Positions 160-23,605 of a DNA stretch of 64,000 nucleotides are shown piece after piece. The position numbers and the translations under genes are program-made. Under the pieces are notes generated by a model. That model ran no database searches and was not told the origin of the DNA. It saw only the letters and a program-made list of their open reading frames with translations. Origin of the DNA: an uncultured bacterium (GTDB lineage Bacteria > Desulfobacterota > Binatia > HRBIN30 > CADEER01); NCBI GenBank assembly GCA_902826395.1, contig CADEER010000012.1, positions 5,049 to 69,048 on the forward strand, written 5' to 3'. Within the stretch, counting starts at the first letter, position 1. Each line of letters opens with the position of its first letter.

Positions 160-323
160 TCGGCGGTTCTCCAATCGAGTCGGACGCGCGGGCGGTGAGG
201 CTCGAAAAAATGCTGCGGATCGCGGCGCGAAAGCGACCTTCGTAGCACACGGATAAAATCTGATGCCAGCCGGAGGCGGTCGCCGTCCGCGCCCGCCGGC
301 CCAATCGGCTGTGGCAATTGACA

Positions 324-3306: not shown

Positions 3307-3336
3307 CCGCTGCCTCGGGCGCGTGCAATCGACAGC

Positions 3337-4845: not shown

Positions 4846-5091
4846 GCCGTGGCGTGCACCCGTATTTGCAACCGGCCGTCTATGCGATGCGCACGCGATG
4901 ACGGTTGGCGCTCAGCCCTTCGGAGATCTAGCACTCGCCACTTCAAGCCCAGAAGGAAGAGCAATTCAACTGAGCAATCGCCTCGGGGCGTTTACCTTGA
5001 CACCTCAAATCGGCGGTGGAAGCGTCGTCGAAGTCTTCGAGCTGATGGAGGGGGTACGGGCGAAAGTTCCTCCTCCGTCGGAGGTAACCAC

Positions 5092-9733: not shown

Positions 9734-9797
9734 GAGTGTACCGATGGGTGCCGTATCGACCGTATCCGCGCTTCATGGCCGACAACGAACCGCGCCA

Positions 9798-11967: not shown

Positions 11968-12936
11968 GTGAGGTCGCCGGTGGCGGTCTCGCGGTGGATG
12001 CCGCGTTTCATCGGCCCTCTCGTCCTCGTCGCGATCCTGCTGACCCTGGACGTCGGCGACGTCGCGGTCGCTCTGCGGCGGGTCGATCTGATGGCGCTCG
12101 CCGGGGCCTGTCTGGCGGTGCTGCCGACCGTGCCGTTCCGTTCGTCGCGCTGGCGAATGTTGGTGGAGGCGGGTGGAGCCGAGTTGGGGGGGATGGAAGC
12201 GCTGCATGCCTATGCGTTCTCGATCGTCGCCGGGGCCGCGACGCCGGGGCGTCTCGGGGAGCTCGTCAAAGTCGGTCATTTGCGAAATCGCGGTGTGCCG
12301 GCCAGCACGGCGCTGCTGAGCGTCTCGCTGGATCGCCTGTTCGATGTGGTGTTCCTGATCGTCGTCGGCGCCGGTGCCGTTGTCGCGGTTTCCGGTCTGC
12401 GATCGCCATGGCTCATCGCGGCGGCCTCGGGCGGCGCGGCTCTCTCGTGCGGCGCTGTGATTGCGATCGTCTTGAGCGAGCGCGGCAGTGCAGTTCCGCT
12501 GGCGATCCTGACGCGGTTGGTGCCGGCGCGGTGGTCGCAGCGCGTTGCGAGATTGCTCGAATCAACCGCCGCGCAGGCGAAGAAGCTGCCGCGGCGGACG
12601 CTGACGATGTGCGGTGTCCTGACTGCGCTGACCTGGCTCGCTACGTATTTCGCCGTCTATCTGTGCGCCGTCGGCTTGCGGCTCGACGTGCCCTTCCTCG
12701 ACGTCTGCGGCGTAACGGCGGTGTCGTCGCTGGTGACATTCCTACCGATCTCCATTCTCGGCCTCGGCACGCGCGACGCGGCGCTCATCGCGCTGCTTGC
12801 GCCGTACGGTGTTGCCGCCAGCGACGCAGTGGCGCTGTCGGCGCTGTATCTAGGCATCACACTGTGGGTAGTGCTCGCCTGCGCCTATTCCCTGCTGACC
12901 CCGGCAGCACGCGCCTGGAAGCGTGGCTGGACGTGA
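11968..12936 (+). CDS. Flippase-like domain protein (lysylphosphatidylglycerol-synthase TM region family, PF03706-like)
   Basis: The ~320-aa ORF has 8 TM helices. The Gly-rich helical pattern is typical of the MprF flippase-domain/UPF0104 family. The start is either GTG 11968 or ATG 11998. Confidence 0.6.
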   Translation: MRSPVAVSRWMPRFIGPLVLVAILLTLDVGDVAVALRRVDLMALAGACLAVLPTVPFRSSRWRMLVEAGGAELGGMEALHAYAFSIVAGAATPGRLGELVKVGHLRNRGVPASTALLSVSLDRLFDVVFLIVVGAGAVVAVSGLRSPWLIAAASGGAALSCGAVIAIVLSERGSAVPLAILTRLVPARWSQRVARLLESTAAQAKKLPRRTLTMCGVLTALTWLATYFAVYLCAVGLRLDVPFLDVCGVTAVSSLVTFLPISILGLGTRDAALIALLAPYGVAASDAVALSALYLGITLWVVLACAYSLLTPAARAWKRGWT

Positions 12937-12958: not shown

Positions 12959-15055
12959 CTAGCGCGGGGCGGGCGGGTCCACCGCCGACTTCGCCAGCAC
13001 GAGAATCTGTTCGCGGCCGATCAAGATCTCGGGATCGCCGGCGATGCTGAGAGTTACGTCGTATCGGTTGTGCGAGACACCGACGATCTTGGCGTCGACG
13101 GCGATGTCGGTCGTACGTTCGGCTGCCAGGGCCAGCGGTAGCAGGCCCCGCACGGACTCCTCGTGCGCGACTTTGCGACCGCGCTTCCAGGTGACGCGGA
13201 AGGTCGTCGGCTCGATCGGATCCGCGTGGCGGAACGTCGCCGCACCTGCCTTGACGCCGAACCGCAGCCCCTTTTCGCCGAGGATCGACGGCAGGCGGCC
13301 GCGGCTGGCGATCGAGAGCGAGCGCACGTCCGTGGTGATCGGACCGTCCGCGACCAGACGCGCCACGCGCACCGTCTCGCCGGCTGCGATCGGTATCAGA
13401 TGAGGTCCGTCCGGCTCGCGGAGCGCCTCGAGGATTGCGTCGGCTCGGCGGCGCTCGCCGCTGATGTTTTGTACGTGAAAGATGACGTTGCGGAAGCCGA
13501 GAGCCCACAGCTCGCGGGCTGCGTCGGGATCGGGCAGGCGCCGCGCGATCGCGTTCACCTCATGCTGCACTGGAGTCAGGAACGACGATTTGCACGAGCT
13601 GACGCGCTGCTGGTGGTAGGCGCCGAGCAACACGTAGCGACTGAGATGACCTGCCCACAGAAAGCTGTAGTTGCCGGGAAGATCGAGCACCGGGCCGGGC
13701 GGTAGATCGCGCACGGCGACGAGGTCCGCCTCCGGCGGCCGCATCGGGAACGGCGCCGATGGGATGGGTTGGCCGAACGTCCAGTCGGCCCACGCCGGCG
13801 TCATGATCTCGGCCGCGCATACCAGCGCGATGATCGCAAAGGCGCTTGCCCGTCGCCATGACGCGCCGCGCTCTGGCGAAGCAACGGCATCCGCCAGCGC
13901 GCGAGCTCCGTACGCCGCCAGCAGCGCCAGTGGAACGATGATGCCGACGAATACGTTGTTGGGTGCCCGAATGGCTCCCAGTCCCGGTACCCACGACTGC
14001 GCCAGAGAGCGCAGCGAAGGCACGTTAAAGCCGGCCCAGGAGGTCGGTAGAGGAAGGACGAACCAGGTGACGGCGAACGCCGCCAGCGCCAGCGCCAAGC
14101 GCGGGTCATGGACGCGACGCCGCGGCTTGCCGAGAAAGCGATCAAGCAGGCCGATGGCGGCCAGCAGCAGCAGGCTGTTGCCGGGGTAGAGCCCGTGGCC
14201 GAGGAAGACTTGCGTGGGAAACGCCCAGGCTCTGCGACCCTCGAGAATTCCCCATGCCTCGCGCGTGCCGAGGTACGGACCGAGCGCCGCCCACGCCGTG
14301 CCCGCGATAGGTAGTGTCGCGAGGAGCAGCTGCGGCAAGATCTTCGGTAGCGTCCGCCAATGCTTGAAGCACAGGTAAGTGCCGTAGATGCCCACGATCA
14401 AGGCGTAGTGCAGGAGCACGTACATGCTCTCGAGACATTGTGCGGAGCCGACAGCAGCGAGCATGACGGCGTATCGCCACTGGCGGCGCGTGAAGACGAG
14501 ATCGAGCAGCAAGAGAACCAGCGGCATCCACTCGTTGGCGCGCACCGAAGGATGCTGCAGATCGAGCAGGCGCATCGGATGAAAGCCGAACAACAGCCCG
14601 GCGATCATTGCGGCTGCGCTGTTGCCCGTCCAGTAGAGCGCCAGCGCATACATGGAAAGGGCGGCGATCCAGGGTTTGAATGCGCCGACGAAGTTATAGG
14701 TGATCACCGGATCGCCGGAGAACAGGTACACCGGGAGTCCCTGCAACCCCTCGCCCAACATGTGCTCGCCGAAGGTGACGCTGTCGGCGCTCGGATGGCA
14801 CATGGCGCCGTCGAAGAACTCGAGCGGCCGCGTCGACAGCGTGCGCGCCGCGTAGACCAGTTGAGTGAGTCCGCGGGTCATATCACTGCCCACCAGTTCA
14901 GCTGGATAGCGGCTGGACTGCATAACGGGATCGAAGTTCACGACGGTCGCCGGGTGATCCAGAACCGCGCGGTTGCACCACAGGGCAACGACCGTGAAAA
15001 GCGCGACAGCCACTAGGTGGCGCGGCCACCTTGCGGAAACCCAATCGCCGCTCAT
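12959..15055 (-). CDS. Large GT-C/YfhO-like membrane protein, paralog 1 of 3
   Basis: The 698-aa ORF has an N-in TM1, a ~100-aa extracytoplasmic loop carrying a conserved FFDGAMCHP...FGEHMLGEGL block, ~12 more TM helices, and a ~300-aa C-terminal soluble domain (AYHQQRVSSCKSSFLTPVQ...ELWALGFR). It overlaps the upstream paralog by 4 nt. Confidence 0.8.
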   Translation of the reverse strand: MSGDWVSARWPRHLVAVALFTVVALWCNRAVLDHPATVVNFDPVMQSSRYPAELVGSDMTRGLTQLVYAARTLSTRPLEFFDGAMCHPSADSVTFGEHMLGEGLQGLPVYLFSGDPVITYNFVGAFKPWIAALSMYALALYWTGNSAAAMIAGLLFGFHPMRLLDLQHPSVRANEWMPLVLLLLDLVFTRRQWRYAVMLAAVGSAQCLESMYVLLHYALIVGIYGTYLCFKHWRTLPKILPQLLLATLPIAGTAWAALGPYLGTREAWGILEGRRAWAFPTQVFLGHGLYPGNSLLLLAAIGLLDRFLGKPRRRVHDPRLALALAAFAVTWFVLPLPTSWAGFNVPSLRSLAQSWVPGLGAIRAPNNVFVGIIVPLALLAAYGARALADAVASPERGASWRRASAFAIIALVCAAEIMTPAWADWTFGQPIPSAPFPMRPPEADLVAVRDLPPGPVLDLPGNYSFLWAGHLSRYVLLGAYHQQRVSSCKSSFLTPVQHEVNAIARRLPDPDAARELWALGFRNVIFHVQNISGERRRADAILEALREPDGPHLIPIAAGETVRVARLVADGPITTDVRSLSIASRGRLPSILGEKGLRFGVKAGAATFRHADPIEPTTFRVTWKRGRKVAHEESVRGLLPLALAAERTTDIAVDAKIVGVSHNRYDVTLSIAGDPEILIGREQILVLAKSAVDPPAPR

Positions 15056-17208
15056 TGCCGGTCCCCTGGAGCTGAGCCGCGGAGCGCACCCTTCGGTGAT
15101 TGCACTGCTTTCGGTTTAGCCGGGCGCACGACGATGCGTTCGACGCCGAGCACATGCGCCGACTCATCGGCGAGTGCGAAGGTCACGTCATATTTGCCGA
15201 GCGCCGTCGGCGCGGTCGCTTTGACGACCACGTCGACGGTGCGACCGGGCGCCAGTGTGATGGGCAACAGTCCTCGGGCGACCTCGGTGTGCACCACCGT
15301 CTGGTCGCGCCGCCAGGTCACGAGCAACTCGGTCGGCTGGATGGGATCGGGATGGCGAAACGTCGCACCGGTGCTGGTGACGCCGAACGGAACGCCGATA
15401 CCGCCGGCATGGGCCGGCAGGCGCGGCGCGGGCGCCGGCGAGAGCGAGTCGAGATCTCGCGAGATCGGTCCATCGGCCACCAAACGCGCTATGCGAATGG
15501 TGTCGCCGGCCGGCAGCGGCACCAGGTGCGCGCCCGCGGCCGGGTCGGCGAGTCCGTTCAGAATCCGGTCGGTGTCGGCGCGGATGCGCTCGATGTCCTG
15601 CGCATGGAAGACGATGCTGCGGAAGCCGAGTGCCCACAGCTCGCGCGCCGCGTCGACGTCGGGTAGCCGCTCGGCGATGCGATTGACCTCGAACTGGATG
15701 GGTGTGTGAAACGACGCCTTACAGGTCGATATGCGGTGCTGGTGGTAGGAGCCGAGCAGCACGTAGTCGCTCAGCTCGCCGATCCAGAAGAAGTTGTAGT
15801 TGCCGGGTAAATCCAACACTGGACCGGGCGGCAGATTGCGCGCGGCCGCGAGATCGCCCTCGGGCGGTCGCAGCCGATAGGTGGCGGCAGGCAGCGCGGC
15901 TCCGAAGCTGCGCCGTGCGACGGCAGGTACGAAGACCTCGATCGCACAAGCTAGCGCGAGCACCGCCAGCGCGATGCCGCGCGCCGCGCTGCCGACCCGG
16001 GTCTCCATGGCGCGAATACCGTAGGCGGCGAGCACCGCCAGAGGCACGATGGCGGCAAAGAATACTTTGTCGGGTGCTCGCACCGCGGCGACACCCGGCA
16101 CATACGAACGCATCAAGTCGCCGAGTGACGGCACGCCGAACTGCGTGCCCGGTACCTGGAGTGGGAACAGGAACCATACCGCCGCCAGCGCTGCGGCAGT
16201 CAGGGGCAATCGCGGGTCGACGGGTCGCTCGCGAGTTTTTCCGAACAGTCGGTCGGCGAGACCCAGCAATGCGAGCAGCGACAGGCAAACGCCAGCGAAG
16301 TAGCGGCCTCCGAACCAGAAGAACCAAGGCGGCCCCTGGAAACCGCCGGGGCGATCGACGAATCCCCAGATCCGGCGGGTCTCGAGATATGGACCGAGTG
16401 CCCACGCCATGGTTACCGCGATGGCAGCGGCGACCGGCACCAGGCGGGGCAGGATCACCGCCAGCGCCGTCCGGTACTTCCAAAGCAGATAGAGTCCGTA
16501 GCTGCCGACGACCAATGCATACTGGATCAGCACGTACATGCTCGACAGCGCCTGCACCGAGGCGAATAGCGCCAGCGCCAGCGCGTCGCGCCAGCGACGT
16601 CGCGCGAAGACGCGGTCGAGAAAGAGCAGAATCAGGGGAATCCATTCGTTGCCGACCACCGACGGGTGTGCGGCATCGCTCAACCTCAGTGGATGGAAGC
16701 CGAACAGAAACCCGGCTAGCAGCGCCGCCCCCCAGCTCGACGTCCAGTGATAAGCCAACGCGTACATCCCCGCGGCGGCGATCCAGGGTTTGATCGTGGC
16801 GACGAAGTTGTAGGTGATGACCGGATCGTCCCAGAGGAGCTGGACCGGCGCGCCGACGATGCCGTCGGCGAGCATGTGCTCTCCGAACGCCACGCCATCG
16901 ACCGGATAGCACATCCACCCGGTGAAGAAGTCCTGCGGCGCGGTGGGCAGAGTCCTCGCGACATACGAAAGCTGTGCGACGCCGCGTTTGAGGTCGCTCG
17001 CCGCGAACTCGACCAGTTTGTCGAGATCGCGCTGCGACTTTCGCGGGAAATCGACGGATGGATCGTAGGTGACTACCGTGGCCGGATCGTTCAGCACGGC
17101 GCGCGAGTTCCACAGGGCGGCGCTCGCGAAGACGCACATCCCCAGCAGGTGCAATCCCCAGCGCATCATGGTCGGGCGAACTCTCATCCAGCAGGCGGGA
17201 CGGCGCAA
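15052..17208 (-). CDS. Large GT-C/YfhO-like membrane protein, paralog 2 of 3
   Basis: The 718-aa ORF is collinear with paralog 1 and ~55-65% identical by eye (FFTGWMCYP...FGEHMLADGI; SYHQHRISTCKASFHTPIQ...ELWALGFR). Confidence 0.8.
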   Translation of the reverse strand: MRRPACWMRVRPTMMRWGLHLLGMCVFASAALWNSRAVLNDPATVVTYDPSVDFPRKSQRDLDKLVEFAASDLKRGVAQLSYVARTLPTAPQDFFTGWMCYPVDGVAFGEHMLADGIVGAPVQLLWDDPVITYNFVATIKPWIAAAGMYALAYHWTSSWGAALLAGFLFGFHPLRLSDAAHPSVVGNEWIPLILLFLDRVFARRRWRDALALALFASVQALSSMYVLIQYALVVGSYGLYLLWKYRTALAVILPRLVPVAAAIAVTMAWALGPYLETRRIWGFVDRPGGFQGPPWFFWFGGRYFAGVCLSLLALLGLADRLFGKTRERPVDPRLPLTAAALAAVWFLFPLQVPGTQFGVPSLGDLMRSYVPGVAAVRAPDKVFFAAIVPLAVLAAYGIRAMETRVGSAARGIALAVLALACAIEVFVPAVARRSFGAALPAATYRLRPPEGDLAAARNLPPGPVLDLPGNYNFFWIGELSDYVLLGSYHQHRISTCKASFHTPIQFEVNRIAERLPDVDAARELWALGFRSIVFHAQDIERIRADTDRILNGLADPAAGAHLVPLPAGDTIRIARLVADGPISRDLDSLSPAPAPRLPAHAGGIGVPFGVTSTGATFRHPDPIQPTELLVTWRRDQTVVHTEVARGLLPITLAPGRTVDVVVKATAPTALGKYDVTFALADESAHVLGVERIVVRPAKPKAVQSPKGALRGSAPGDRQ

Positions 17209-17246
17209 CCTTCCGGGATTCTCCGGCTCGAGGTGCAGCCTGCGAC

Positions 17247-19283
17247 CTACTCGATGACTTTCACGCGTTGCGTCCCGATGATGTGTTCCGGTTGAGCTAC
17301 CGGTGCCAGGGTCACCTGGTAGATCGCGGCCTCGCGAGGTGCGCGATCCGCAACGACGATTTCGGTCTTGTGTCCGGGCGCGAGAGCGAGCGGCAGCAGA
17401 ACCCGCTGCTGCGTGGTCTGCGCAACGGCATCGTCACGGTTCCAGCGCACGACGACTTCCGTCGGCTGTACCGGATCTGGGTGTCGGAACGTCCTGCCGC
17501 CGGCGCTCTGCACGCCGAAGCGCGGCGCGATGTCGGAATTGGCCAGAACCGACCGCTTGCGAGCGACCGGCGCGAGCGAGGCGAAGTCGCTCGTCGTCGG
17601 CCGACCGGCCTCCAGGCGATACACTCGAAGCGTTGCGCCCGATGCGATCGGCTGTAGTCGAGGTCGTGCGTCGGCCCTCGACAATCGTTCGATGATCTCG
17701 TCGGCACGGCGTCGACGATCTTCGTCCTTCTGTCCGGAGAAGATGATCGTTCGCAGGCCGAGTGCCCAGAGCTCCTGGGCCGCGCGCGAGCTTGGCAAGC
17801 GGTCGACGATCGCGGCGATCTCGGTCTGCACCGGGGTTACGAAGGATGCCCGGCACGCTGCGAGCCGGCGTCGATGGTAGGCGCCGAGGAGCGCGTTGTG
17901 ACTCATGAAGAGTGAGCTCGCGCCTTGGTAGGACAACGGTATGTCGAGAACGGGTCCGGGCGGCAGATCGCGCAGCGCCGCCAGATCCTCCGCCGCAGGT
18001 CGGACGTGCAGCGTCGACGTCGGCAGCGGAGATCCAAAACTCACGCTCGCCAATCGGGGATGGAACACCTCGGCGGCGCAGCCCAGCGCGAGACCGGCGC
18101 TGGCCATGATCCGCGTCCTCGGCGAGAGCTTCTCGACCAGGGCCAGCACTCCGTAGGCGGCCATCAAGCCGAGGGGCGCGACGACGAGGAAGTACACGTT
18201 GCCCGGTGCGCGCACCGCATCGAGGCCGGGAAGCCAGGCGCGCAAGAGACGGTCGAGGGACGGCACCGCGAAGTCGGTGCCCGGCACTTGCCATGAGAGC
18301 ACGAACCAGCTCGCCGCCAATGCGAGTGCGGCCATCGGCAGTCGCGGGTCGTGTCCGAGTCGCGATCTAGCTCCGCGCAGCCGGTCCAGCATGCCGACGG
18401 AAGCGAGAATGAGCAGGCCGATCCCGACAAATCGGTGACCGCCGAAATGGACGAACTTCGACACAGTCGGAAAACCCACGCGGTCTTGCAGGACGCCCCA
18501 GATCTCGCGAGTCACCAGATAGGGTCCGAGTACCCAGAAGCCGCTTGCCCCGAGCGCAACCACCACCAGCGCCAGCTTGGGCAGGAGACCTGCTAGCTCG
18601 CCGCGGAATCGCCAAGACAAATAGGTTCCGTAGATGCCGCCGACCAGCGCGAGCTGGAGAACCACGTAGAAGCTCTCGAGAATCTGCAACGCCACGAGCG
18701 CGGCGAGGAGCAGTGCGTCCCGCCAGCGCCTGTTTGCGAAGAGTAACTGTAGTGCGAGCAGAATTGCCGGAAGGATCTCGTTGCCCACCACGGATGGGTG
18801 CGCGAGGTCGCGCAGGCGCATGGGGTGGAAGCCGAACAGAAATCCGGCGATCAGCGCCGCCCCGGAGCTTCCCGTCCAGTAGTACGCCAGCGCGTACATG
18901 CTCACGGCCCCGATCAAGGGCCGCGCAATGACTACGAAGTTGAACGTGACTACGGGGTCGTTCGACAGCAGGTATGCCGGGGCGCCCAGCAGGCCCTCGC
19001 CGAGCATGTGCTCTCCCAGGCTGACGCTGTTCGGAGTCGGGTAACACATCGGGCCTTCGAAGAATCGCCACGGTTCGCGCGTGAGAATTCGGCTGGCATA
19101 GGCCGTCTGGGCGATGTTCCGCCGCACGTCGGATGCCAAGAGGGGACTGTCGGGATAGCTGACCGTGACGAGCGCGGACGGATCTCGCAGCACGGCGCGC
19201 GACGGCCAGAGAGCGGCGATTGCGAACGCACCAACCGCCAGAGCGTGGATTGCAGGGTGTGTTCGCCTACCGGATATGATCAT
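17247..19283 (-). CDS. Large GT-C/YfhO-like membrane protein, paralog 3 of 3
   Basis: The 678-aa ORF has the same architecture (FFEGPMCYP...LGEHMLGEGL; AYHRRRLAACRASFVTPVQ...ELWALGLR). It is the first gene of the three-gene minus-strand operon. Confidence 0.8.
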   Translation of the reverse strand: MIISGRRTHPAIHALAVGAFAIAALWPSRAVLRDPSALVTVSYPDSPLLASDVRRNIAQTAYASRILTREPWRFFEGPMCYPTPNSVSLGEHMLGEGLLGAPAYLLSNDPVVTFNFVVIARPLIGAVSMYALAYYWTGSSGAALIAGFLFGFHPMRLRDLAHPSVVGNEILPAILLALQLLFANRRWRDALLLAALVALQILESFYVVLQLALVGGIYGTYLSWRFRGELAGLLPKLALVVVALGASGFWVLGPYLVTREIWGVLQDRVGFPTVSKFVHFGGHRFVGIGLLILASVGMLDRLRGARSRLGHDPRLPMAALALAASWFVLSWQVPGTDFAVPSLDRLLRAWLPGLDAVRAPGNVYFLVVAPLGLMAAYGVLALVEKLSPRTRIMASAGLALGCAAEVFHPRLASVSFGSPLPTSTLHVRPAAEDLAALRDLPPGPVLDIPLSYQGASSLFMSHNALLGAYHRRRLAACRASFVTPVQTEIAAIVDRLPSSRAAQELWALGLRTIIFSGQKDEDRRRRADEIIERLSRADARPRLQPIASGATLRVYRLEAGRPTTSDFASLAPVARKRSVLANSDIAPRFGVQSAGGRTFRHPDPVQPTEVVVRWNRDDAVAQTTQQRVLLPLALAPGHKTEIVVADRAPREAAIYQVTLAPVAQPEHIIGTQRVKVIE

Positions 19284-19537
19284 CTGCCTGGTGCGGTGTT
19301 CGATCCCGGACAGCCTGCTCGAATCGGTCCGTCATGGCGGATATGCCCGGTGGCCGTTCGGCTTCGCTGGCAATACGGATGTGGTTCTTGGTAGACAAGC
19401 CGACGGCACCGAGTCGACCGATCTTTCCGATCGGGGCGAGGCGAACGAAGGGGCACCAGGATGAGGTCGCCCAGGATCCGTCGCCCATGGTCGATCACCG
19501 GTAGTAGTTCCATGAAAAGTGAATGCAGGAGAGGTTC

Positions 19538-20749
19538 ATGAGAGTTCTCATCACCGGCGTCGACGGCTATCTGGGCTGGGCGCTGTCTCTACATCTGGCC
19601 GGTCGTGGGCACCAGGTGGCCGGCATCGACAACTACTCCCGGCGCGACTGGGTGCAGGAGATGGCATCGCAGTCGGCGACCCCGATTGCCCGCATGTCGG
19701 ATAGGCTCCTCGCCTACTACAAGCGGTTCGGCAAGAATCTGATCTTCCACAAGGGCGATCTGACCGACTTCAACTTCGTCCTGAACGTCTACAAGAGCTT
19801 CCGACCCGAGGCGATCGTCTATCTCGGCGAGATGCCGTCGGCGCCTTACAGCATGCTCGACGTGCACCACGCGGTGTACACGCAGACCAACAACATCGTC
19901 GGCACCCTGATGACCCTGTACGCGATGGCCGATGCGGTGCCCGAGTGTCATCTGGTGAAGCTCGGTACCATGGGCGAGTACGGCACTCCCAACGTCGACA
20001 TCCCCGAGGGCTTCTTCGAGATCGAGTACCGCGGCCGCAAGGACCGGATGATGTTCCCGCGCAAGGCGGGGAGCTGGTACCACCAGTCCAAGGTGCACGA
20101 CACCAACAACGTCGAGATGGCCTGCCGCCTGTGGGGCTTGCGCTCGACCGACATCATGCAGGGTGTGGTGTACGGCACGCGCGTCGATGAGATGGCGGGC
20201 GATGCGCACTTGCTGACGCGGTTCGACTTCGACCAATGCTTCGGCACGGCGATCAACCGCTTCTGCGCGCAGGCAGTCGTCGGTCTGCCATTGACGCCGT
20301 TCGGCAGAGGAACGCAACGACGCGGTTTCCTGCCGCTCCGCGACTCCGTGCAGTGCCTGACGCTGGCGGTGGAAAATCCGCCCGAGGCCGGCGAGTATCG
20401 CGTCTTCAACCAGTTTGAAGAGGTGTACAGCATCATGGAGCTGGCTGAAAAAGTCCGCACGGTGGCGGGCCGCCTCGGCATGGACGTCGAAATCCAGCCG
20501 CTCGAGAACCCGCGCATCGAGGCGGAGGATCACTACTACAATCCCGACCATCGACACCTGCTCGATCTCGGCTACCAGCCGACGCAGGACATGGAGAGCG
20601 AGCTCGAGATCGTGCTCAAGGACCTGCTCGAGTACCGCGATCGCATCGAGGCCCGCCAGGAGGCGCAGTTCCCGGACATCCGCTGGGACCGCGAGCGGCG
20701 CCGCTCGCAGACACTCCCCGCCGCGGGTGAGCGAAAGGCCGCTGGCTGA
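19538..20749 (+). CDS. sqdB: UDP-sulfoquinovose synthase (SQD1/SqdB family SDR)
   Basis: A GGAGAGG RBS sits 3 nt before ATG 19538. The product is collinear with plant SQD1 and bacterial SqdB across diagnostic blocks: RVLITGVDGYLGWA (Rossmann), MPSAPYSMLD, HHAVYTQTNNIVGTL, VKLGTMGEYGTPNVDIPEG, AGSWYHQSKVHD, GTAINRFCAQAVVG, and RVFNQFEEVYSIMELA. Confidence 0.9.
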   Translation: MRVLITGVDGYLGWALSLHLAGRGHQVAGIDNYSRRDWVQEMASQSATPIARMSDRLLAYYKRFGKNLIFHKGDLTDFNFVLNVYKSFRPEAIVYLGEMPSAPYSMLDVHHAVYTQTNNIVGTLMTLYAMADAVPECHLVKLGTMGEYGTPNVDIPEGFFEIEYRGRKDRMMFPRKAGSWYHQSKVHDTNNVEMACRLWGLRSTDIMQGVVYGTRVDEMAGDAHLLTRFDFDQCFGTAINRFCAQAVVGLPLTPFGRGTQRRGFLPLRDSVQCLTLAVENPPEAGEYRVFNQFEEVYSIMELAEKVRTVAGRLGMDVEIQPLENPRIEAEDHYYNPDHRHLLDLGYQPTQDMESELEIVLKDLLEYRDRIEARQEAQFPDIRWDRERRRSQTLPAAGERKAAG

Positions 20750-20768
20750 CGAGCCGCGGCGGGCGCAG

Positions 20769-21770
20769 ATGAACTGGCTGATCACGGGAGGCTGCGGATT
20801 CATCGGCACGAATCTGATCCGTTACCTCCGCGATCGCGGCGATCAGAGCGTTCGCGTGTACGACGACCTGAGCGTCGGGCGAACCGACGATCTCGCGGCG
20901 GTTGCTCCGATCGCGGAAGCAGCATCCGCGCCCGGCGAGTTCGCTCCGCCAGGTGGCCCGGTGCAGCTCGTGGTCGGCGACATCGAGAATGCCGAGGATC
21001 TCTGCGCGGCTGCCCACGGCGCCGACGTCGTCGTTCACCTCGCCGCCAGTACGGGCGTGTTGCCGTCGATCGAGAATCCGCGCCAGGACTGCAACGCCAA
21101 CGTGATCGGTACGCTGAATGCTCTCGAGGCGGCCCGCCTGCAGGGCGTCGACCGCTTCGTGTTTGCGTCGTCCGGCGCCGTGCTCGGCGAGCAGTTGCCG
21201 CCGATCGACGAGGGCAAGGTGCCGAAGCCGCTGTCGCCGTACGGCGCCGGCAAGCTCGCGGGAGAAGGGTACTGTTCCGTGTACGCGGCCTGTTACGGAA
21301 TCCACACCGCGGCGCTGCGGTTCGGCAACGTCTACGGTCCCGGCTCGGCGTCGAAGGGCAGCGTCGTCGCCAAGTTCATCAAGCAGGCTTTGGCAGGCGA
21401 GAAACTGGTGATCTACGGCGACGGCGCGCAGACGCGCGACTTCATCTACGTCGAGGATCTCGTCGACGCGGTGTTTCGCGCCGCGACTCTCGGCGCCGGC
21501 GGCGAGGTGTTCCAGATCGCCACCAACCGCGAAACCACCGTCAACGAGATCGTCGAGATGCTGTCATCGCTGGTTCACGAGGTGACCGGTCGCGAGGTCG
21601 AGGTCGAATACGCAGCGGCTCGCTCCGGCGAGATCCTGCGCAACTACGCCGACGTCTCCAAGGCGAAGCGCCTGCTCGGTTGGCAGCCGGTGCACTCTCT
21701 GCGCGATGGGCTGCGCGAGACCGTGCGCTGGTACGTCGAGGGCGGCCGCGCCGGCGGGGTCGCGGCGTAG
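20769..21770 (+). CDS. NAD-dependent nucleotide-sugar epimerase/dehydratase (UDP-glucose 4-epimerase-like SDR)
   Basis: MNWLITGGCGFIGTNL is a GxxGxxG Rossmann motif, and PYGAGK is the YxxxK catalytic motif. It lies 19 nt downstream of sqdB. The 5' part of ORF 20415-21770 is a frame artefact. Confidence 0.85.
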   Translation: MNWLITGGCGFIGTNLIRYLRDRGDQSVRVYDDLSVGRTDDLAAVAPIAEAASAPGEFAPPGGPVQLVVGDIENAEDLCAAAHGADVVVHLAASTGVLPSIENPRQDCNANVIGTLNALEAARLQGVDRFVFASSGAVLGEQLPPIDEGKVPKPLSPYGAGKLAGEGYCSVYAACYGIHTAALRFGNVYGPGSASKGSVVAKFIKQALAGEKLVIYGDGAQTRDFIYVEDLVDAVFRAATLGAGGEVFQIATNRETTVNEIVEMLSSLVHEVTGREVEVEYAAARSGEILRNYADVSKAKRLLGWQPVHSLRDGLRETVRWYVEGGRAGGVAA

Positions 21771-21785
21771 GGCCGCGAGGCGAGC

Positions 21786-22841
21786 ATGGGATCGATCTCG
21801 GTCTTGCGGCTGATCGGCGTCGTCGCCGGCTTGTACGTCGTCGCGTCGGCGTTCTGGGGATTCCGCGCGCGGCGGATCAACCGTCGCGAGACGCTGGTCC
21901 GCTGGCTGGTCGGCGGCGGCCTGGTCGTCGTCAGTCTGTTTCCCGACAGCATCAATTTCCTCCGCGACGTGCTGGCCCTCGATTCGGATGCGTACGGCAG
22001 GCTCCTCGCCCTGCTCGTCGTCTCGAACCTGCTCATCTGGCTGCTGTTCCTGCGCCAGCGCGGCAAGGTCTATCTGCTCGGCCGCCACCTCGACGGCCTG
22101 GTGCGAAGCTCGATGGTGCTGCGCAACCCCGAAGAGGGCCTCGCCAACCTGCCGGCCGGCGTCGACGTGCTGGTCGTGCTGCCGGCGTACAACGAAGAGC
22201 AAAACCTGCCCGGGGTGCTGGCGCGAATGCCCAAGGAGATCGACGGGTACACCGTCGGCGTCGCGGTGATCGACGATGGCAGCGAGGACGCCACTCGCCG
22301 CGTCGCTCTCGAGGCGGGAGCCGGCGTCGTGTCCAATCCGATCCGCCGCGGCCAGGGGGCGGCGTCGCGCCTCGGCTACGATCTGGCGCGGCGACTCGAT
22401 GCCAAGGTGGTGGTCACCCACGATGCCGACGGCCAGCACAGCCCCGAGGAGATCGCCACGGTGATCCGGCCGATCCTCGCCGGCGACAAAGATTTCGTCA
22501 TCGGCTCGCGACTGTTGGGCGAGCGCGAGAGCGACAGCCAGGTGCGCCTGGTAGGCATCCACGTCAACAACTTGCTGATCAACTTCCTCGCCGGCACCGG
22601 GGTGTCGGACTGCTCGAGCGGTTTCAAGGCGATCCGCGTCGAATCGCTGAAACAGTTCGAGCTCGCCGAGGACCAGTTTCAGGCAGCCGAAGCGATCATC
22701 GCCGCGGCGAAAGCCGGGCTGCGCATCGGCGAGGCGCCGATCACCGTAAAGCGGCGGTGGACTGGCGAGAGCAAGAAGGGCCGCAATTTCAGCTACGGCC
22801 TCAACTTCACGCGCACCGTGCTCAAGGCCTGGTGGAAGTGA
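21786..22841 (+). CDS. Polyprenyl-phosphate glycosyltransferase (GT2, DPM1/GtrB/ArnC-like) with an N-terminal 3-TM extension
   Basis: VLVVLPAYNEE, AVIDDGSEDAT (DxD) and VVTHDADGQHSPEE are GT2 DPM1-family blocks. The first ~100 aa form three TM helices (DUF2304-like). Confidence 0.8.
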   Translation: MGSISVLRLIGVVAGLYVVASAFWGFRARRINRRETLVRWLVGGGLVVVSLFPDSINFLRDVLALDSDAYGRLLALLVVSNLLIWLLFLRQRGKVYLLGRHLDGLVRSSMVLRNPEEGLANLPAGVDVLVVLPAYNEEQNLPGVLARMPKEIDGYTVGVAVIDDGSEDATRRVALEAGAGVVSNPIRRGQGAASRLGYDLARRLDAKVVVTHDADGQHSPEEIATVIRPILAGDKDFVIGSRLLGERESDSQVRLVGIHVNNLLINFLAGTGVSDCSSGFKAIRVESLKQFELAEDQFQAAEAIIAAAKAGLRIGEAPITVKRRWTGESKKGRNFSYGLNFTRTVLKAWWK

Positions 22842-23596
22842 AAGCCGACGCCGCCGCACCCGCTAGCCCGGTCCGCGACTTCTACGAGGCGAAGTATCTC
22901 GCCGGCGAGGAGATCCAGCGCACCAGCAAGCTGTACACGCTCGACTGTGTTCCCGCGGCCGGGGCGCTGGAGATCATCGACATCGGCTGCGGCACTGGGC
23001 ACAACTCGCGAGCGATGGCCGCCAGGGGACACCGCGTGCGGGGCATCGACATCTCCGAGCACGCCATCGCGCGGTACCGGGAGAGCGGCTTCGACGGCCG
23101 CACGATGGATATCGAGCGCGGGCTCGAGTTCGCCGACGAGTCGTTCGATCTGGCCTTCTGCTCGGAGGTGATCGAACATCTCGTCCGTCCGGAGCGCTTC
23201 GCGGCGGAGGTGCGCCGCGTGCTGCGCCCGGGCGGCCGCTTGGTGCTGTCGACGCCGAACTCGGCCTTCTGGCTCTACCGCGTCCTCGCCGTGTTCGGCT
23301 GGGTCGTCAGCGACGTCCAACACCCCATGCACCTGCGCTTCTTCACGCGCGCCAGCCTGCGCCGTCTGCTGGAGGGAGCGGGTTTCCGCGTCGACACGGC
23401 GCTCGGCCGCAACATGTACCTGATCCTGCCGGACCCGCGCCTCGAAGCGCTGCGGTCGCTCTATCGCGCGGTGGGCCTGCGCGAGGAGATCCGCTTCACG
23501 ACCAAGAAGAGCTTCTGGCACCTGTCGTCGCGGTCCGGCTTCTGGAGCTCCTTGTTCGCGGACACGCTGATCTTCGCCGTCGTCAAAGACCGCTGA
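22838..23596 (+). CDS. Class I SAM-dependent methyltransferase
   Basis: A GTG start overlaps the GT2 stop (GTGA). IIDIGCGTGHNS is motif I. It has a ~250-aa Methyltransf_11/23-like fold. Confidence 0.8.
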   Translation: MKADAAAPASPVRDFYEAKYLAGEEIQRTSKLYTLDCVPAAGALEIIDIGCGTGHNSRAMAARGHRVRGIDISEHAIARYRESGFDGRTMDIERGLEFADESFDLAFCSEVIEHLVRPERFAAEVRRVLRPGGRLVLSTPNSAFWLYRVLAVFGWVVSDVQHPMHLRFFTRASLRRLLEGAGFRVDTALGRNMYLILPDPRLEALRSLYRAVGLREEIRFTTKKSFWHLSSRSGFWSSLFADTLIFAVVKDR

Positions 23597-23605
23597 CCGC
23601 CGCCG

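What the first reader, a model, noticed from the sequence alone, without database searches (positions are those of the whole stretch)
19538..23596. UDP-sulfoquinovose synthase without an SQDG glycosyltransferase, next to a polyprenyl-phosphate GT2: a possible lipid-linked sulfosugar donor
sqdB is normally followed by sqdX/sqdD/sqdC, which make the membrane lipid SQDG. Here the downstream genes are instead an SDR epimerase, a DPM1-like polyprenyl-phosphate glycosyltransferase and a methyltransferase, all within the GT-C cluster. By analogy to archaeal Agl3-dependent N-glycans, that suggests UDP-sulfoquinovose, or an epimerised/methylated derivative, is loaded onto a polyprenyl phosphate and used for periplasmic glycosylation. 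Sulfoquinovose in a bacterial protein or glycan modification pathway would be unusual. The 4-nt GT2/MTase overlap and short gaps indicate one operon.
Basis: partly seen in the sequence, partly recalled or inferred. Interest (0 to 1): 0.7.

Follow-up and report, generated by a model that had tools for sequence, protein, structure and literature searches.

The report
Lipid-linked sulfosugar glycosylation gene cluster
A bacterial operon couples the enzyme that makes the sulfonated sugar sulfoquinovose to a lipid-carrier sugar-loading enzyme and a battery of membrane glycosyltransferases, and this pairing recurs across many phyla, which points to an undescribed way of putting sulfosugars on cell envelopes.

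Summary
Window 19538-23596 holds four co-directional genes:
- a full-length SqdB/SQD1/Agl3-type UDP-sulfoquinovose synthase homolog;
- a GalE/WbpP-like 4-epimerase-type SDR;
- a GT2 whose closest relatives are polyprenyl-phosphate glycosyltransferases (DPMS, ArnC, GtrB), fused to a GacJ/Rv3632-like DUF2304 membrane domain;
- a SAM methyltransferase.

Upstream lie a flippase-like protein, two SGNH proteins and at least five GT-C glycosyltransferases. One of these was modelled at pLDDT 91, and every significant PDB match was a GT-C enzyme. The 64 kb window has no SqdX/SqdD-type transferase.

The linkage is not local chance.
- Starting from SqdB, this GT2 family is its commonest neighbour (17 of about 77 genomes).
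- Starting from the GT2, 17 of 20 metagenome loci with at least 5 kb of flank carry SqdB.
- Carriers include Actinomycetota, Acidobacteriota, Desulfobacterota, Planctomycetota and Bathyarchaeia.

Best reading: a Gtr/GacIJL/PpgS-type extracytoplasmic glycosylation system whose lipid-linked donor is polyprenyl-phospho-sulfoquinovose, or its C4 epimer sulfofucose, possibly methylated.

Caveats:
- there is no biochemistry;
- GT2-linked SqdBs almost always lack an Arg that is essential in Agl3;
- the acceptor is unknown;
- the rest of the genome could not be searched.

I found no published description.

The parts
19538..20749 (+). SqdB/SQD1/Agl3-family UDP-sulfoquinovose synthase homolog, 403 aa
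   Evidence: NF041015 scores 567.7 bits over positions 1-383 of 384. SQD1 1QRR scores 430 bits over the full length, at 47% identity. Catalytic columns T145, M146, E148, Y149, S180, Y182, H183 and K186 are kept. The 'HFGEQRSAP' loop reads YLGEMPSAP, so His95 is Tyr and Arg101 is Pro.
20769..21770 (+). Extended SDR of the UDP-hexose 4-epimerase type, 333 aa. Candidate UDP-sulfoquinovose 4-epimerase, or a UDP-Glc supplier.
   Evidence: Pfam Epimerase, E 3e-55. No NCBIfam equivalog is reached. Best PDB relatives are 4-epimerases: T. maritima GalE 4ZRM (E 1e-55), WbpP, WbgU and MoeE5. The sequence shows SSGA...YGAGK and no dehydratase Asp-Glu pair. Homologs at 42-59% identity sit beside SqdB and/or the GT2 in other loci.
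21786..22841 (+). DUF2304 (GacJ/Rv3632-like, 3 TM helices) fused to a DPMS/ArnC/GtrB-type GT2, 351 aa. Candidate polyprenyl-phosphate sulfosugar synthase.
   Evidence: Pfam GT2 at 130-290 and weak DUF2304 at 7-89. The family profile hits DPMS 5MLZ (E 2e-26), ArnC (E 1e-20) and GtrB (E 7e-11). The AF2 model has pLDDT 85, and its top fold hits are ArnC and DPMS. The RxxGESK motif aligns with DPMS. DDGS and DADGQH motifs are invariant in the family.
22838..23596 (+). Class I SAM-dependent methyltransferase, 252 aa, translationally coupled to the GT2 through a GTGA overlap
   Evidence: Methyltransf_23/11/25, E about 1e-25. No specific NCBIfam or PDB orthologue. Conserved at the same position in L001 at 78% identity. 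The substrate is unknown.
19284..19537 (.). Divergent intergenic region between the GT-C genes (minus strand) and the SqdB operon (plus strand). Presumed promoter region.
   Evidence: Position only. The sigma-70 consensus scan found nothing.
17247..19283 (-). GT-C fold glycosyltransferase, paralog 1, with a C-terminal beta-sandwich domain
   Evidence: Weak Pfam PTPS_related match. The AF2 model has pLDDT 91.3 and pTM 0.90. All 21 Foldseek PDB hits with E<=1e-3 are GT-C enzymes: AftD, AftA, STT3/PglB, ArnT and DPY19. An Asp (D52) is invariant at the N-terminal end of the family alignment. No WWD motif.
15052..17208 (-). GT-C paralog 2
   Evidence: 48% identical to paralog 1. Weak Pfam PTPS_related match.
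12959..15055 (-). GT-C paralog 3
   Evidence: 47% identical to paralog 1. No Pfam hit of its own. All three paralogs are conserved in L001.
11968..12936 (+). Flippase-like membrane protein (LPG_synthase_TM / TIGR00374). Candidate flippase for the lipid-linked donor.
   Evidence: PF03706, E 6e-44. TIGR00374 scores 72.8 bits against a cut-off of 43.2. Homologs lie beside SqdB-GT2 in L004, L006, L017 and L092.
9798..11807 (-). TMEM260-like GT-C glycosyltransferase
   Evidence: PF11028, E 1e-20. Conserved in L001.
8591..9772 (-). SGNH/GDSL, AlgX-like protein. Candidate glycan O-acyl modifier.
   Evidence: Lipase_GDSL_2, E 6e-12, and ALGX, E 1e-6.
6798..8606 (+). PMT_2-type GT-C glycosyltransferase
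   Evidence: PF13231, E 2e-9. Its start overlaps the stop of the upstream GDSL-domain ORF.
4900..6801 (+). ORF with a second GDSL/SGNH domain. The start is uncertain and membership is tentative.
   Evidence: Lipase_GDSL_2, E 5e-11, on the in-frame translation. ORF listing.
1825..4845 (-). Two polytopic membrane proteins (493 and 502 aa) with no family match. Possible further members of the cluster.
   Evidence: No Pfam or NCBIfam hit. A crude hydropathy count gives 8 and 11 hydrophobic segments.

Best explanation
The locus encodes an extracytoplasmic glycosylation system of the three-component kind, fed by a sulfonated sugar: a polyprenyl-phosphate sugar synthase, a flippase and GT-C transferases.

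Proposed steps:
1. The SqdB homolog converts UDP-glucose plus sulfite to UDP-sulfoquinovose.
2. The adjacent GalE-like SDR optionally epimerises it at C4 to UDP-sulfofucose. Alternatively it balances the UDP-Gal/UDP-Glc supply.
3. The DUF2304-GT2 fusion transfers the sulfosugar to undecaprenyl or polyprenyl phosphate at the cytoplasmic face. The built-in GacJ-like domain would serve lipid-acceptor binding.
4. The TIGR00374 flippase-like protein moves the lipid-linked sugar outward.
5. The five or more GT-C enzymes transfer it, at several positions or repeatedly, to an envelope acceptor that is still unknown. The methyltransferase and SGNH proteins decorate the product.

What is shown: gene identities, operon layout, the fold of the GT2 and of one GT-C, and the recurrent SqdB-GT2(-GT-C) linkage.

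What is inferred: every chemical step, the donor specificity of the GT2, the role of the SDR and the methyltransferase, and the acceptor.
For: (1) SqdB identity. The match to SQD1 is full length at 430 bits. NF041015 scores 567.7 bits, higher than the 489.9 bits of a cyanobacterial SqdB homolog against the same model. Eight catalytic columns are conserved.

(2) GT2 identity. Profile hits are DPMS (E 2e-26), ArnC (E 1e-20) and GtrB (E 7e-11), ahead of soluble GT-A enzymes at about 1e-10. The top fold hits are ArnC and DPMS. The GESK motif aligns with DPMS. The N-terminal DUF2304 corresponds to GacJ/Rv3632, which stimulate the Und-P GT2s GacI and PpgS and are sometimes fused to them (bioRxiv 10.1101/180810).

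(3) Linkage seeded from SqdB. Among about 77 non-redundant genome loci, this GT2 family is the commonest neighbour: 17 loci, 11 of them immediately downstream.

(4) Linkage seeded from the GT2. In 80 metagenome loci only 33-47% identical to the window GT2, an SqdB homolog (at least 40% identity) is present in 46 of 80 overall. It is present in 34 of 48 loci with at least 1.3 kb on both sides, and in 17 of 20 with at least 5 kb on both sides. It is often directly upstream.

(5) Breadth. Carriers include delta proteobacterium NaphS2, Acanthopleuribacteraceae, several Actinomycetota, Solirubrobacterales, Planctomycetota and Bathyarchaeia. GT2-linked SqdBs fall in at least five sequence clusters.

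(6) Third and fourth components travel with the pair. PMT_2 or DUF6541 GT-C genes and LPG_synthase_TM genes follow it in L004, L006, L017 and L092. A PMT_2 family is sandwiched between SqdB and the GT2 in many actinobacterial-type loci. In 27 of 40 SqdB-GT2 loci, a polytopic protein of at least 380 aa lies within 8 kb.

(7) The window GT-C paralog has a GT-C fold.

(8) The order SqdB-SDR-GT2 recurs in L001, L103, L112, L148 and in Bathyarchaeia L026 and L042.

(9) No SQDG-type transferase is present in the window.
Against: - No enzyme activity or glycan structure is available. The donor specificity of a GT2 cannot be read from sequence.
- GT2-linked SqdB homologs lack the Arg of the EQRSAP loop in 60 of 61 cases, and the window enzyme also changes His95 to Tyr. 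Ala mutants of both residues inactivate Agl3 (PMC4388408). I know of no characterised member with Pro at this site.
- Two close GT2 relatives, L090 (59% identity) and L098, sit behind the SDR with no SqdB in 8-10 kb. The GT2 could therefore use the SDR's product from another UDP-sugar, as PpgS uses UDP-GalNAc.
- The flippase-like protein is not from a family with proven polyprenyl-phosphate-sugar flippase activity.
- The DUF2304 match in the window protein is just under Pfam's threshold (24.2 against 25.5 bits).
- The rest of the genome could not be searched for sqdX/sqdD.
Confidence: 0.6

Rival explanations
1. The SDR and the GT2 form a self-contained PpgS-like unit. An epimerase makes, for example, UDP-GalNAc or UDP-Gal, and the GT2 loads that sugar on polyprenyl phosphate. 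SqdB is only a neighbour, and its product goes to another glycoconjugate: SQDG through an unlinked SqdX/SqdD, or a cytoplasmic glycan pathway.
For: L090 (GT2 59% identical) and L098 have SDR followed by GT2 with no SqdB within 8-10 kb. The SDR's best solved relatives include the UDP-GlcNAc 4-epimerases WbpP and WbgU. PpgS/Rv3632 and GacI/GacJ use HexNAc donors (bioRxiv 10.1101/180810). SqdB-SDR pairs also occur without this GT2 in Wzx/Wzy loci.
Against: In most loci SqdB is the only sugar-nucleotide enzyme beside the GT2, and the SDR is absent. SqdB is present in 17 of 20 well-flanked GT2 loci. The GT2 misses the PpgS, AglJ and ArnC equivalog cut-offs by wide margins.
Confidence: 0.15
2. The GT2 is a new kind of sulfolipid synthase. 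It transfers sulfoquinovose directly to a non-polyprenyl membrane lipid such as diacylglycerol. This would replace SqdX, and the GT-C genes would belong to a separate pathway.
For: No SqdX/SqdD is present in the window. Some GT2/GT21 enzymes make glycosyl-diacylglycerols (my own knowledge). Acidobacterial SqdB loci carry a GT21.
Against: Sequence and fold matches rank polyprenyl-phosphate enzymes first, including the GESK region. The DUF2304 partner domain is known only with Und-P GT2s (bioRxiv 10.1101/180810). GT-C and flippase-like genes co-travel with the pair in unrelated phyla.
Confidence: 0.12
3. The Arg-less SqdB subgroup does not add sulfite. It makes another C6-modified or 5,6-ene/4-keto UDP-hexose, so the lipid-linked sugar is not a sulfosugar.
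For: Arg101 is Pro, Ala or Ser in 60 of 61 GT2-linked enzymes. It is retained in SQD1 and in 24 of 66 unlinked homologs. R101A and H95A mutants of Agl3 are inactive, and without sulfite Agl3 releases UDP-glucose-5,6-ene (PMC4388408).
Against: All other catalytic and dehydratase-like residues, including His183, are kept in 126 of 128 sequences. Overall similarity to SQD1 and to the archaeal model is high. By motif alignment the Arg corresponds to the NAD-ribose Lys84 of GalE, a position that varies among extended SDRs (my own knowledge, not tested here).
Confidence: 0.1

Closest known systems
GacI/GacJ/GacK/GacL of Streptococcus pyogenes (GlcNAc side chain of the group A carbohydrate)
   Same: A GT2 makes a sugar-P-undecaprenol. 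A DUF2304 membrane protein (GacJ) binds and activates it, and fusions of the two are known. A flippase and a GT-C (GacL) complete the extracytoplasmic transfer (bioRxiv 10.1101/180810). The window GT2 is such a DUF2304-GT2 fusion, with GT-C and flippase-like genes nearby.
   Different: The donor there is UDP-GlcNAc; here the linked nucleotide-sugar enzyme is an SqdB homolog. The flippase candidate is TIGR00374-type, not Wzx-type. There are at least five GT-C genes instead of one. No orthology to a characterised member was shown.
PpgS (Rv3631)/Rv3632 with the GT-C Rv3779 of Mycobacterium tuberculosis (galactosamine on arabinogalactan)
   Same: A polyprenyl-phosphate GT2 is stimulated by a DUF2304 protein (bioRxiv 10.1101/180810). 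From my own knowledge, a UDP-hexose 4-epimerase supplies its donor and a GT-C performs the final transfer. The window's SDR-to-GT2 order mirrors that logic.
   Different: The NCBIfam PpgS model scores only 92 bits against a cut-off of 370. An SqdB homolog is present, and most relatives have SqdB but no epimerase.
Three-component O-antigen modification systems (GtrA/GtrB/Gtr*; Citrobacter undP-ribofuranose system)
   Same: The definition is a polyprenyl-phosphate sugar synthase, a flippase and a GT-C enzyme, with auxiliary epimerases in some systems (PMC11127046). All three roles have candidates here.
   Different: The sugar would be a sulfonated 6-deoxyhexose, not reported for any such system in the literature I could search. 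The acceptor glycan is unknown, and no O-antigen genes were seen in the window.
SQDG pathway (SqdB/SQD1 with SqdX/SQD2, or SqdB-SqdD-SqdC-SqdA)
   Same: The first enzyme belongs to the same family, with 47% identity to SQD1 and the same catalytic residues.
   Different: There is no GT4 or GT8 sulfoquinovosyltransferase in the window. The conserved partner is a polyprenyl-phosphate-type GT2. The EQRSAP Arg is replaced.
Agl3-dependent N-glycosylation in Sulfolobus acidocaldarius
   Same: A UDP-sulfoquinovose synthase homolog feeds a glycoconjugate other than SQDG (PMC4388408). The window enzyme scores closer to the archaeal NCBIfam model than a cyanobacterial SqdB does.
   Different: From my own knowledge, sulfoquinovose in Sulfolobus is built into a dolichol-pyrophosphate-linked oligosaccharide that AglB then transfers. 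Here none of the five GT-C proteins checked has a WWD-type oligosaccharyltransferase motif, and the partner is a monophosphate-type GT2.
Mycobacterial arabinan and mannan assembly (one decaprenyl-phosphate sugar donor, many GT-C enzymes: Emb, Aft, Mpt)
   Same: Several paralogous GT-C enzymes sit around one lipid-linked monosaccharide donor. The best fold matches of the window paralog are AftD and AftA, and like them it carries an extra C-terminal beta domain.
   Different: There is no sequence-level relationship. The donor synthase is a GT2, not a PRPP-dependent enzyme. The organism is not a mycobacterium.

Membership tests
UDP-sulfoquinovose synthase (SqdB/SQD1/Agl3) | Full-length similarity to an experimentally characterised member | tested here: met
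   SQD1 1QRR scores 430 bits, E 7e-128, over residues 2-385. Identity is 47%. The next best family (GalE) scores only 34.7 bits.
UDP-sulfoquinovose synthase (SqdB/SQD1/Agl3) | SDR triad Thr145/Tyr182/Lys186, plus His183 and the Glu/Tyr pair implicated in dehydration | tested here: met
   The KLGTMGEYG and SWYHQSK motifs are present. These columns are conserved in 126 of 128 family members aligned.
UDP-sulfoquinovose synthase (SqdB/SQD1/Agl3) | His95 and Arg101 of the HF(G/A)EQRSAP loop, which are essential in Agl3 | tested here: not met
   The window reads YLGEMPSAP. Arg is absent in 60 of 61 GT2-linked homologs. Mutant data are from PMC4388408.
UDP-sulfoquinovose synthase (SqdB/SQD1/Agl3) | NCBIfam NF041015 equivalog cut-off (575 bits) | tested here: inconclusive
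   The window scores 567.7 bits. The model behaves as an archaeal one: a cyanobacterial SqdB homolog scores 489.9, while Thermoplasmata score 632.
UDP-sulfoquinovose synthase (SqdB/SQD1/Agl3) | [quoted passage not shown] | not testable with these tools
   Needs an enzyme assay.
Polyprenyl-phosphate glycosyltransferase GT2 (DPMS/GtrB/ArnC/GacI/PpgS) | GT-A catalytic domain with DXD motifs | tested here: met
   PF00535, E 7e-22. DDGS (D163, D164) and DADGQH (D213, D215) are invariant in the family alignment.
Polyprenyl-phosphate glycosyltransferase GT2 (DPMS/GtrB/ArnC/GacI/PpgS) | Closest sequence and fold relatives are enzymes that glycosylate polyprenyl phosphate, including the C-terminal RxxGESK region | tested here: met
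   Profile hits: DPMS E 2e-26, ArnC E 1e-20, GtrB E 7e-11. Foldseek top hits are ArnC 9ASC and DPMS 5MLZ at E 4e-14, though GpgS follows closely at 7e-13. GESK aligns with DPMS.
Polyprenyl-phosphate glycosyltransferase GT2 (DPMS/GtrB/ArnC/GacI/PpgS) | Association with a DUF2304 (GacJ/Rv3632) membrane partner | tested here: met
   The N-terminal residues 7-89 match PF10066 at 24.2 bits, just under the 25.5 cut-off. Many homologs carry the precomputed PF10066 hit. The model shows three long N-terminal helices.
Polyprenyl-phosphate glycosyltransferase GT2 (DPMS/GtrB/ArnC/GacI/PpgS) | Orthology to a characterised member (AglJ, PpgS, ArnC, Dol-P hexose transferase) | tested here: not met
   Scores are 97.7/325, 92.4/370, 42.4/529 and 68.7/375 bits against the respective cut-offs.
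Polyprenyl-phosphate glycosyltransferase GT2 (DPMS/GtrB/ArnC/GacI/PpgS) | Transfers a sugar to polyprenyl phosphate, and which sugar | not testable with these tools
   Needs membranes, C55-P and UDP-SQ/UDP-SFuc.
Three-component extracytoplasmic glycosylation system | A GT-C fold transferase encoded with the synthase | tested here: met
   Pfam PMT_2, TMEM260-like and PTPS_related matches. The model of 17247-19283 matches only GT-C structures.
Three-component extracytoplasmic glycosylation system | A flippase for the lipid-linked monosaccharide (GtrA, Wzx, MATE or SMR type) | tested here: inconclusive
   The candidate is a TIGR00374/LPG_synthase_TM flippase-like protein, not one of the named families. 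It recurs with SqdB-GT2.
SQDG biosynthesis locus | A sulfoquinovosyltransferase (GT4 SqdX/SQD2, or GT8 SqdD with SqdC/SqdA) | tested here: not met
   No such family appears among the window's genes. The rest of the genome was not available.
Agl3/AglB-type N-glycosylation | An STT3/AglB/PglB oligosaccharyltransferase with the WWDYG motif | tested here: not met
   No WW[DE] motif in any of the five GT-C proteins. The top fold hits are AftD and AftA, with STT3/PglB among the general GT-C matches.

The most novel reading that the evidence does not exclude
The SqdB-SDR pair is the missing biosynthetic route to UDP-sulfofucose, the C4 epimer of sulfoquinovose. As of 2025 no biosynthetic pathway for sulfofucose was known (PMC12421959). 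Polyprenyl-phospho-sulfosugar would then be used by the several GT-C paralogs to build or heavily decorate a sulfonated, phosphate-free anionic envelope polymer. This would be a widespread, unrecognised sink and source of sulfosugars in non-phototrophic bacteria and in some archaea.
Probability: 0.15. Interest if true: 0.85.

Novelty: new variant of a known kind. Interest (0 to 1): 0.72.

Why it matters
Current reviews treat sulfoquinovose essentially as the head group of the phototroph lipid SQDG, plus a few archaeal N-glycans (PMC13436972, PMC4388408).

A conserved SqdB plus polyprenyl-phosphate GT2 plus GT-C module across Actinomycetota, Acidobacteriota, Desulfobacterota, Planctomycetota and Bathyarchaeia would have three consequences.
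- Many heterotrophs would make sulfosugar glycoconjugates on their surfaces. That would change estimates of where environmental sulfoquinovose comes from, and explain why sulfoglycolytic bacteria thrive away from phototrophs.
- It would add a negatively charged, phosphorus-free sugar to the repertoire of lipid-linked donors used by GT-C enzymes.
- It would give a concrete candidate (SqdB plus the GalE-like SDR) for sulfofucose biosynthesis.

The idea is directly testable. One carrier, delta proteobacterium NaphS2, is a cultured strain (my own knowledge), and the two core genes could be expressed in E. coli.

Tried and rejected
- **Gene calling.** A longest-ORF-first gene caller lost SqdB in 17 high-GC loci. 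I replaced it with a GC3-weighted caller with SqdB forced in.
- **Motif extraction.** A regular-expression read-out of the EQRSAP loop missed most sequences. I replaced it with a MAFFT column read-out.
- **NCBIfam cut-off.** I rejected the NF041015 cut-off as a membership test after calibration. A cyanobacterial SqdB homolog scores further below it than the window does.
- **PDB sequence search.** A profile of the three GT-C paralogs found nothing in the PDB by sequence. Fold comparison was needed.
- **Promoter and terminator scan.** The scan of 19200-23900 was uninformative: no promoter-like sites, and terminator-like sites only inside genes.
- **Organism.** I could not name it. Exact-sequence look-ups return unnamed NCBI and Logan records (samples ERR3089228, ERR3089230, ERR3089232 and ERR3089240), and two look-ups for the NCBI contig failed. 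The nearest named relatives of cluster proteins are Myxococcales/Myxococcota, 'Deltaproteobacteria' and Planctomycetota MAGs.
- **Papers not held.** Mulichak et al. 1999 (the SQD1 structure) and Goddard-Borger & Williams 2017 are not in the library. The structural role of Arg101 therefore rests on my memory of GalE.
- **Cyanobacterial reference.** Locus L076 had no sqdX next to sqdB, so it gave no SqdX reference sequence.
- **Literature.** Searches for sulfoquinovose with undecaprenyl, polyprenyl, polyprenol, GT-C, dolichol phosphate or exopolysaccharide found no description of this arrangement.
- **Oligosaccharyltransferase reading.** I considered and rejected an AglB/PglB-type oligosaccharyltransferase role for the GT-C genes, because they lack the WWD motif.

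Full report
**The observation**

Window 19538-23596 holds four plus-strand ORFs:
- 19538-20749, 403 aa;
- 20769-21770, 333 aa;
- 21786-22841, 351 aa;
- 22838-23596, 252 aa.

They are separated by 19 nt and 15 nt, and the last two overlap by 4 nt (GTGA). An AGGAG lies 5 nt before the ATG at 19538. Independent gene calls on identical metagenome contigs give the same four products.

- The first protein matches the NCBIfam UDP-sulfoquinovose synthase model end to end (567.7 bits, E 1e-170). The next best family scores 35 bits.
- The second is an extended SDR of the epimerase/dehydratase family.
- The third is a GT2. Its best NCBIfam matches are polyprenyl or dolichyl-phosphate glycosyltransferases (AglJ, PpgS, a Dol-P hexose transferase, ArnC), all far below their orthologue cut-offs. 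It also has a weak N-terminal DUF2304 match.
- The fourth is a class I SAM methyltransferase.

The upstream region holds the following:
- a PMT_2 protein at 6798-8606;
- a TMEM260-like protein at 9798-11807;
- three paralogous proteins of about 700 aa at 12959-19283;
- a flippase-like LPG_synthase_TM/TIGR00374 protein at 11968-12936;
- two SGNH/GDSL proteins.

The rest of the window holds ordinary genes, including sulfatase, Lon, a UvrA-like protein, PFK, AcrB and WS/DGAT. It has no GT4 or GT8 gene that could be SqdX/SQD2 or SqdD.

**Is the first gene really in the SqdB/Agl3 family?**

Yes, by most tests.
- It aligns over its full length with Arabidopsis SQD1 (1QRR): 430 bits and 47% identity.
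- It keeps Thr145, Met146, Glu148, Tyr149, Ser180, Tyr182, His183 and Lys186. These columns are conserved in 126 of 128 family members I aligned.
- It misses the NCBIfam cut-off by 7 bits, but this is not meaningful. A cyanobacterial SqdB homolog scores only 489.9 against that model, while Thermoplasmata and Bathyarchaeia sequences score 632 and 593. The model is therefore centred on archaeal enzymes.

One test fails. In Agl3, Ala mutants of His95 and Arg101 in the HF(G/A)EQRSAP loop are inactive (PMC4388408). The window enzyme reads YLGEMPSAP.

**What is the GT2?**

- A profile of 21 family members hits Pyrococcus dolichyl-phosphate mannose synthase (E 2e-26), ArnC (E 1e-20) and GtrB (E 7e-11). 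Soluble GT-A enzymes score about 1e-10.
- The alignment to DPMS runs through the C-terminal RxxGESK segment.
- An AlphaFold model (pLDDT 85) has three long N-terminal helices followed by a GT-A domain and a terminal amphipathic helix.
- Its best PDB fold matches are ArnC and DPMS, although glucosyl-3-phosphoglycerate synthase follows closely.

DUF2304 is the family of GacJ and Rv3632. These small membrane proteins bind and stimulate the undecaprenyl-phosphate GT2s GacI and PpgS, and Rush et al. noted natural DUF2304-GacI fusions (bioRxiv 10.1101/180810). The window protein is such a fusion.

**Are the neighbours GT-C enzymes?**

The three paralogs are 47-48% identical to one another. They belong to a rare family: only 64 hits among 5.8 billion proteins, and most of those homologs carry no Pfam domain. 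They have no sequence match in the PDB.

A model of the 17247-19283 protein is confident (pLDDT 91.3, pTM 0.90). All 21 significant Foldseek matches are GT-C glycosyltransferases: AftD, AftA, STT3/PglB, ArnT and DPY19. An Asp (D52) is invariant at the N-terminal end of the family alignment, and a C-terminal beta-sandwich domain is present. None of the five GT-C proteins has the WWD motif of oligosaccharyltransferases.

**Is the SqdB-GT2 pairing more than a local accident?**

I tested this in both directions.

*Seeding with SqdB.* A scan of one genome per species returned 80 loci from bacteria and archaea. After clustering the four genes on either side, the largest neighbour family was the window's GT2 family: 17 of about 77 non-redundant loci, 11 of them immediately downstream. 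The second largest was the SDR family: 14 loci, 7 immediately downstream. Carriers of the SqdB-GT2 pair include:
- delta proteobacterium NaphS2;
- Acanthopleuribacteraceae;
- several Actinomycetota and Solirubrobacterales;
- Bathyarchaeia.

*Seeding with the GT2 family.* A metagenome scan returned 80 loci whose GT2 is only 33-47% identical to the window's. An SqdB homolog (at least 40% identity) is present in the following proportions, often directly upstream:
- 46 of 80 loci overall;
- 34 of 48 loci with at least 1.3 kb on both sides;
- 17 of 20 loci with at least 5 kb on both sides.

A Planctomycetota relative (GT2 57% identical) also has SqdB immediately upstream. GT2-linked SqdBs fall in at least five sequence clusters, including the one that holds SQD1. 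The association is therefore either ancient or has been assembled repeatedly.

**Do the other components travel with the pair?**

- In L004 and in NaphS2 the order is SqdB, GT2, a GT-C (PMT_2 or DUF6541), then LPG_synthase_TM.
- In L017 the flippase-like gene follows the GT2 directly.
- In many actinobacterial-type loci a PMT_2 protein sits between a divergent SqdB and the GT2.
- By a crude hydropathy count, 27 of 40 well-flanked SqdB-GT2 loci have a polytopic protein of at least 380 aa within 8 kb.
- A close relative of the window (L001, SqdB 90% identical) conserves the whole cluster.

**The SDR and the methyltransferase**

The SDR's best solved relatives are UDP-hexose 4-epimerases: T. maritima GalE, WbpP, WbgU and MoeE5. 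It has the epimerase-type SSGA...YxxxK signature and no dehydratase Asp-Glu pair.

Homologs at 42-59% identity occur in three arrangements:
- between SqdB and the GT2, in L001, L103, L112 and L148, and in Bathyarchaeia L026 and L042 (about 34% identity in the two Bathyarchaeia loci);
- after SqdB without the GT2, in L008, L009, L012 and L014;
- before the GT2 without a nearby SqdB, in L090 and L098.

All three pairwise couplings exist, and the gene order is always SqdB, SDR, GT2. This fits an enzyme acting between the two, for example a UDP-sulfoquinovose 4-epimerase giving UDP-sulfofucose. Sulfofucose is a natural sugar with no known biosynthetic route (PMC12421959). The data equally allow a UDP-Gal/UDP-Glc supply role, or an independent HexNAc route. 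Most SqdB-GT2 pairs lack the SDR, so it is accessory.

The methyltransferase has no informative relatives. Its role is a guess.

**Mechanism proposed, and how sure**

The best-supported reading is a three-component extracytoplasmic glycosylation system as defined for Gtr, Gac and the Citrobacter pentofuranose systems (PMC11127046; bioRxiv 10.1101/180810). Its lipid-linked donor would be polyprenyl-phospho-sulfoquinovose or a C4-epimerised and/or methylated derivative. I put this at about 0.6.

The presence of five or more GT-C genes around one donor synthase recalls mycobacterial arabinan and mannan assembly. It suggests multiple linkages or polymer building rather than a single side-chain addition. 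The acceptor is unknown.

Gene identities, folds and linkage are shown. All chemistry is inferred.

**Rivals**

1. The SDR and the GT2 form a PpgS-like HexNAc unit, and SqdB serves another pathway (0.15). L090 and L098 support this. The many SDR-less SqdB-GT2 pairs argue against it.
2. The GT2 makes a sulfolipid directly on a non-polyprenyl acceptor (0.12). The DPMS/ArnC-type matches, the GacJ-like domain and the co-travelling GT-C genes argue against it.
3. The Arg-less SqdB subgroup does different chemistry (0.10). Arg101 is replaced in 60 of 61 GT2-linked enzymes, but kept in SQD1 and in 24 of 66 unlinked homologs. This correlation is unexplained. By motif alignment the Arg corresponds to the NAD-ribose Lys84 of GalE, a position that varies in extended SDRs. 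That point rests on my memory and could not be checked, because the structure paper is not held.

**Novelty**

Full-text searches combined sulfoquinovose with undecaprenyl, polyprenyl, polyprenol, GT-C, dolichol phosphate and exopolysaccharide. They found no description of such a pathway in bacteria. A 2026 review still presents SqdB-SqdX/SQDG as the bacterial route (PMC13436972).

The kind of system is known. The sugar and the SqdB coupling are new, so I rate it a new variant of a known kind.

**Limits**

- The organism could not be named.

Noticed in passing
window 19820-19850 (SqdB residues 95-100); alignment of 128 SqdB homologs from L001-L171: SqdB homologs next to the DUF2304-GT2 almost never keep the Arg of the EQRSAP loop: 60 of 61 have Pro, Ala or Ser. 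SQD1 and 24 of 66 unlinked homologs keep it. The Ala mutant of this Arg is inactive in Agl3. The window enzyme also has Tyr in place of His95.
   Followed up: partly
L008 5785-15997; L011 12310-14391: SqdB-SDR pairs without the GT2 sit inside Wzx/Wzy-type polysaccharide loci (Wzz/tyrosine kinase, Polysacc_synt flippase, Wzy_C) in a Spirochaetia MAG and a MAG labelled Rickettsiales. This suggests sulfosugars also enter conventional bacterial polysaccharide pathways.
   Followed up: partly
L046-L086 (Acidobacteriota loci), e.g. L061 5304-7196 and 11686-12861: Acidobacterial SqdB genes, which keep the canonical Arg, are flanked by a GT21-family glycosyltransferase, a PMT_2 GT-C and an asparagine synthase-like gene. 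This is a different conserved SqdB neighbourhood that may make another sulfoglycolipid or glycan.
   Followed up: partly
window 12959-19283: The three paralogous GT-C proteins belong to a very rare family. Only 64 homologs were found among 5.8 billion proteins, and most of those carry no Pfam domain. They have a C-terminal beta-sandwich domain. Their closest solved folds are the mycobacterial arabinofuranosyltransferases AftD and AftA.
   Followed up: yes
window 1825-3306 and 3337-4845 (minus strand): Two adjacent polytopic membrane proteins (493 and 502 aa, roughly 8 and 11 hydrophobic segments) have no Pfam or NCBIfam match. They sit at the edge of the glycosylation cluster.
   Followed up: no
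window 318-1808; L091 5002-6969 and 17346-18656: A sulfatase gene lies at the edge of the window cluster, and two sulfatases flank the SqdB-GT2 pair of a Planctomycetota relative. Sulfatases act on sulfate esters, not sulfonates, so the link is unclear.
   Followed up: no
window about 4900-6801 (+) and 8591-9772 (-): Two SGNH/GDSL-domain proteins, one of them AlgX-like, are interleaved with the GT-C genes. The first ORF has an uncertain start, and its stop overlaps the PMT_2 start at 6798. An AlgX-like SGNH gene also follows SqdB-SDR in L014.
   Followed up: no
L090 8993-11065 and 14906-16020: A Myxococcales MAG has the closest named GT2 relative (59% identity) directly behind the SDR, with no SqdB in 10 kb. 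The same locus also carries a separate unfused DUF2304 plus GT2 pair and at least three GT-C genes.
   Followed up: partly
L053, L056, L064, L075 (Thermoplasmata): SqdB is next to an NTP_transferase gene, which I recall matches the Agl3-Agl4 arrangement of Sulfolobus. These enzymes keep the canonical Arg and pass the NCBIfam cut-off.
   Followed up: partly
L018, L022, L024, L025, L028, L044 (Anaerolineae and relatives): SqdB sits in a conserved block of genes that, read by eye from their sequences only, look like amino-acid biosynthesis genes (histidinol dehydrogenase-like, ATP phosphoribosyltransferase-like, prephenate dehydratase-like, aspartate-semialdehyde dehydrogenase-like). No glycosyltransferase is adjacent.
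   Followed up: no
window 29698-35304 (minus strand): An unusually long (1868 aa) UvrA-like protein with repeated ABC, UvrA interaction and DNA-binding domains. A similar protein of 1699 aa is present in the related contig L001.
   Followed up: no
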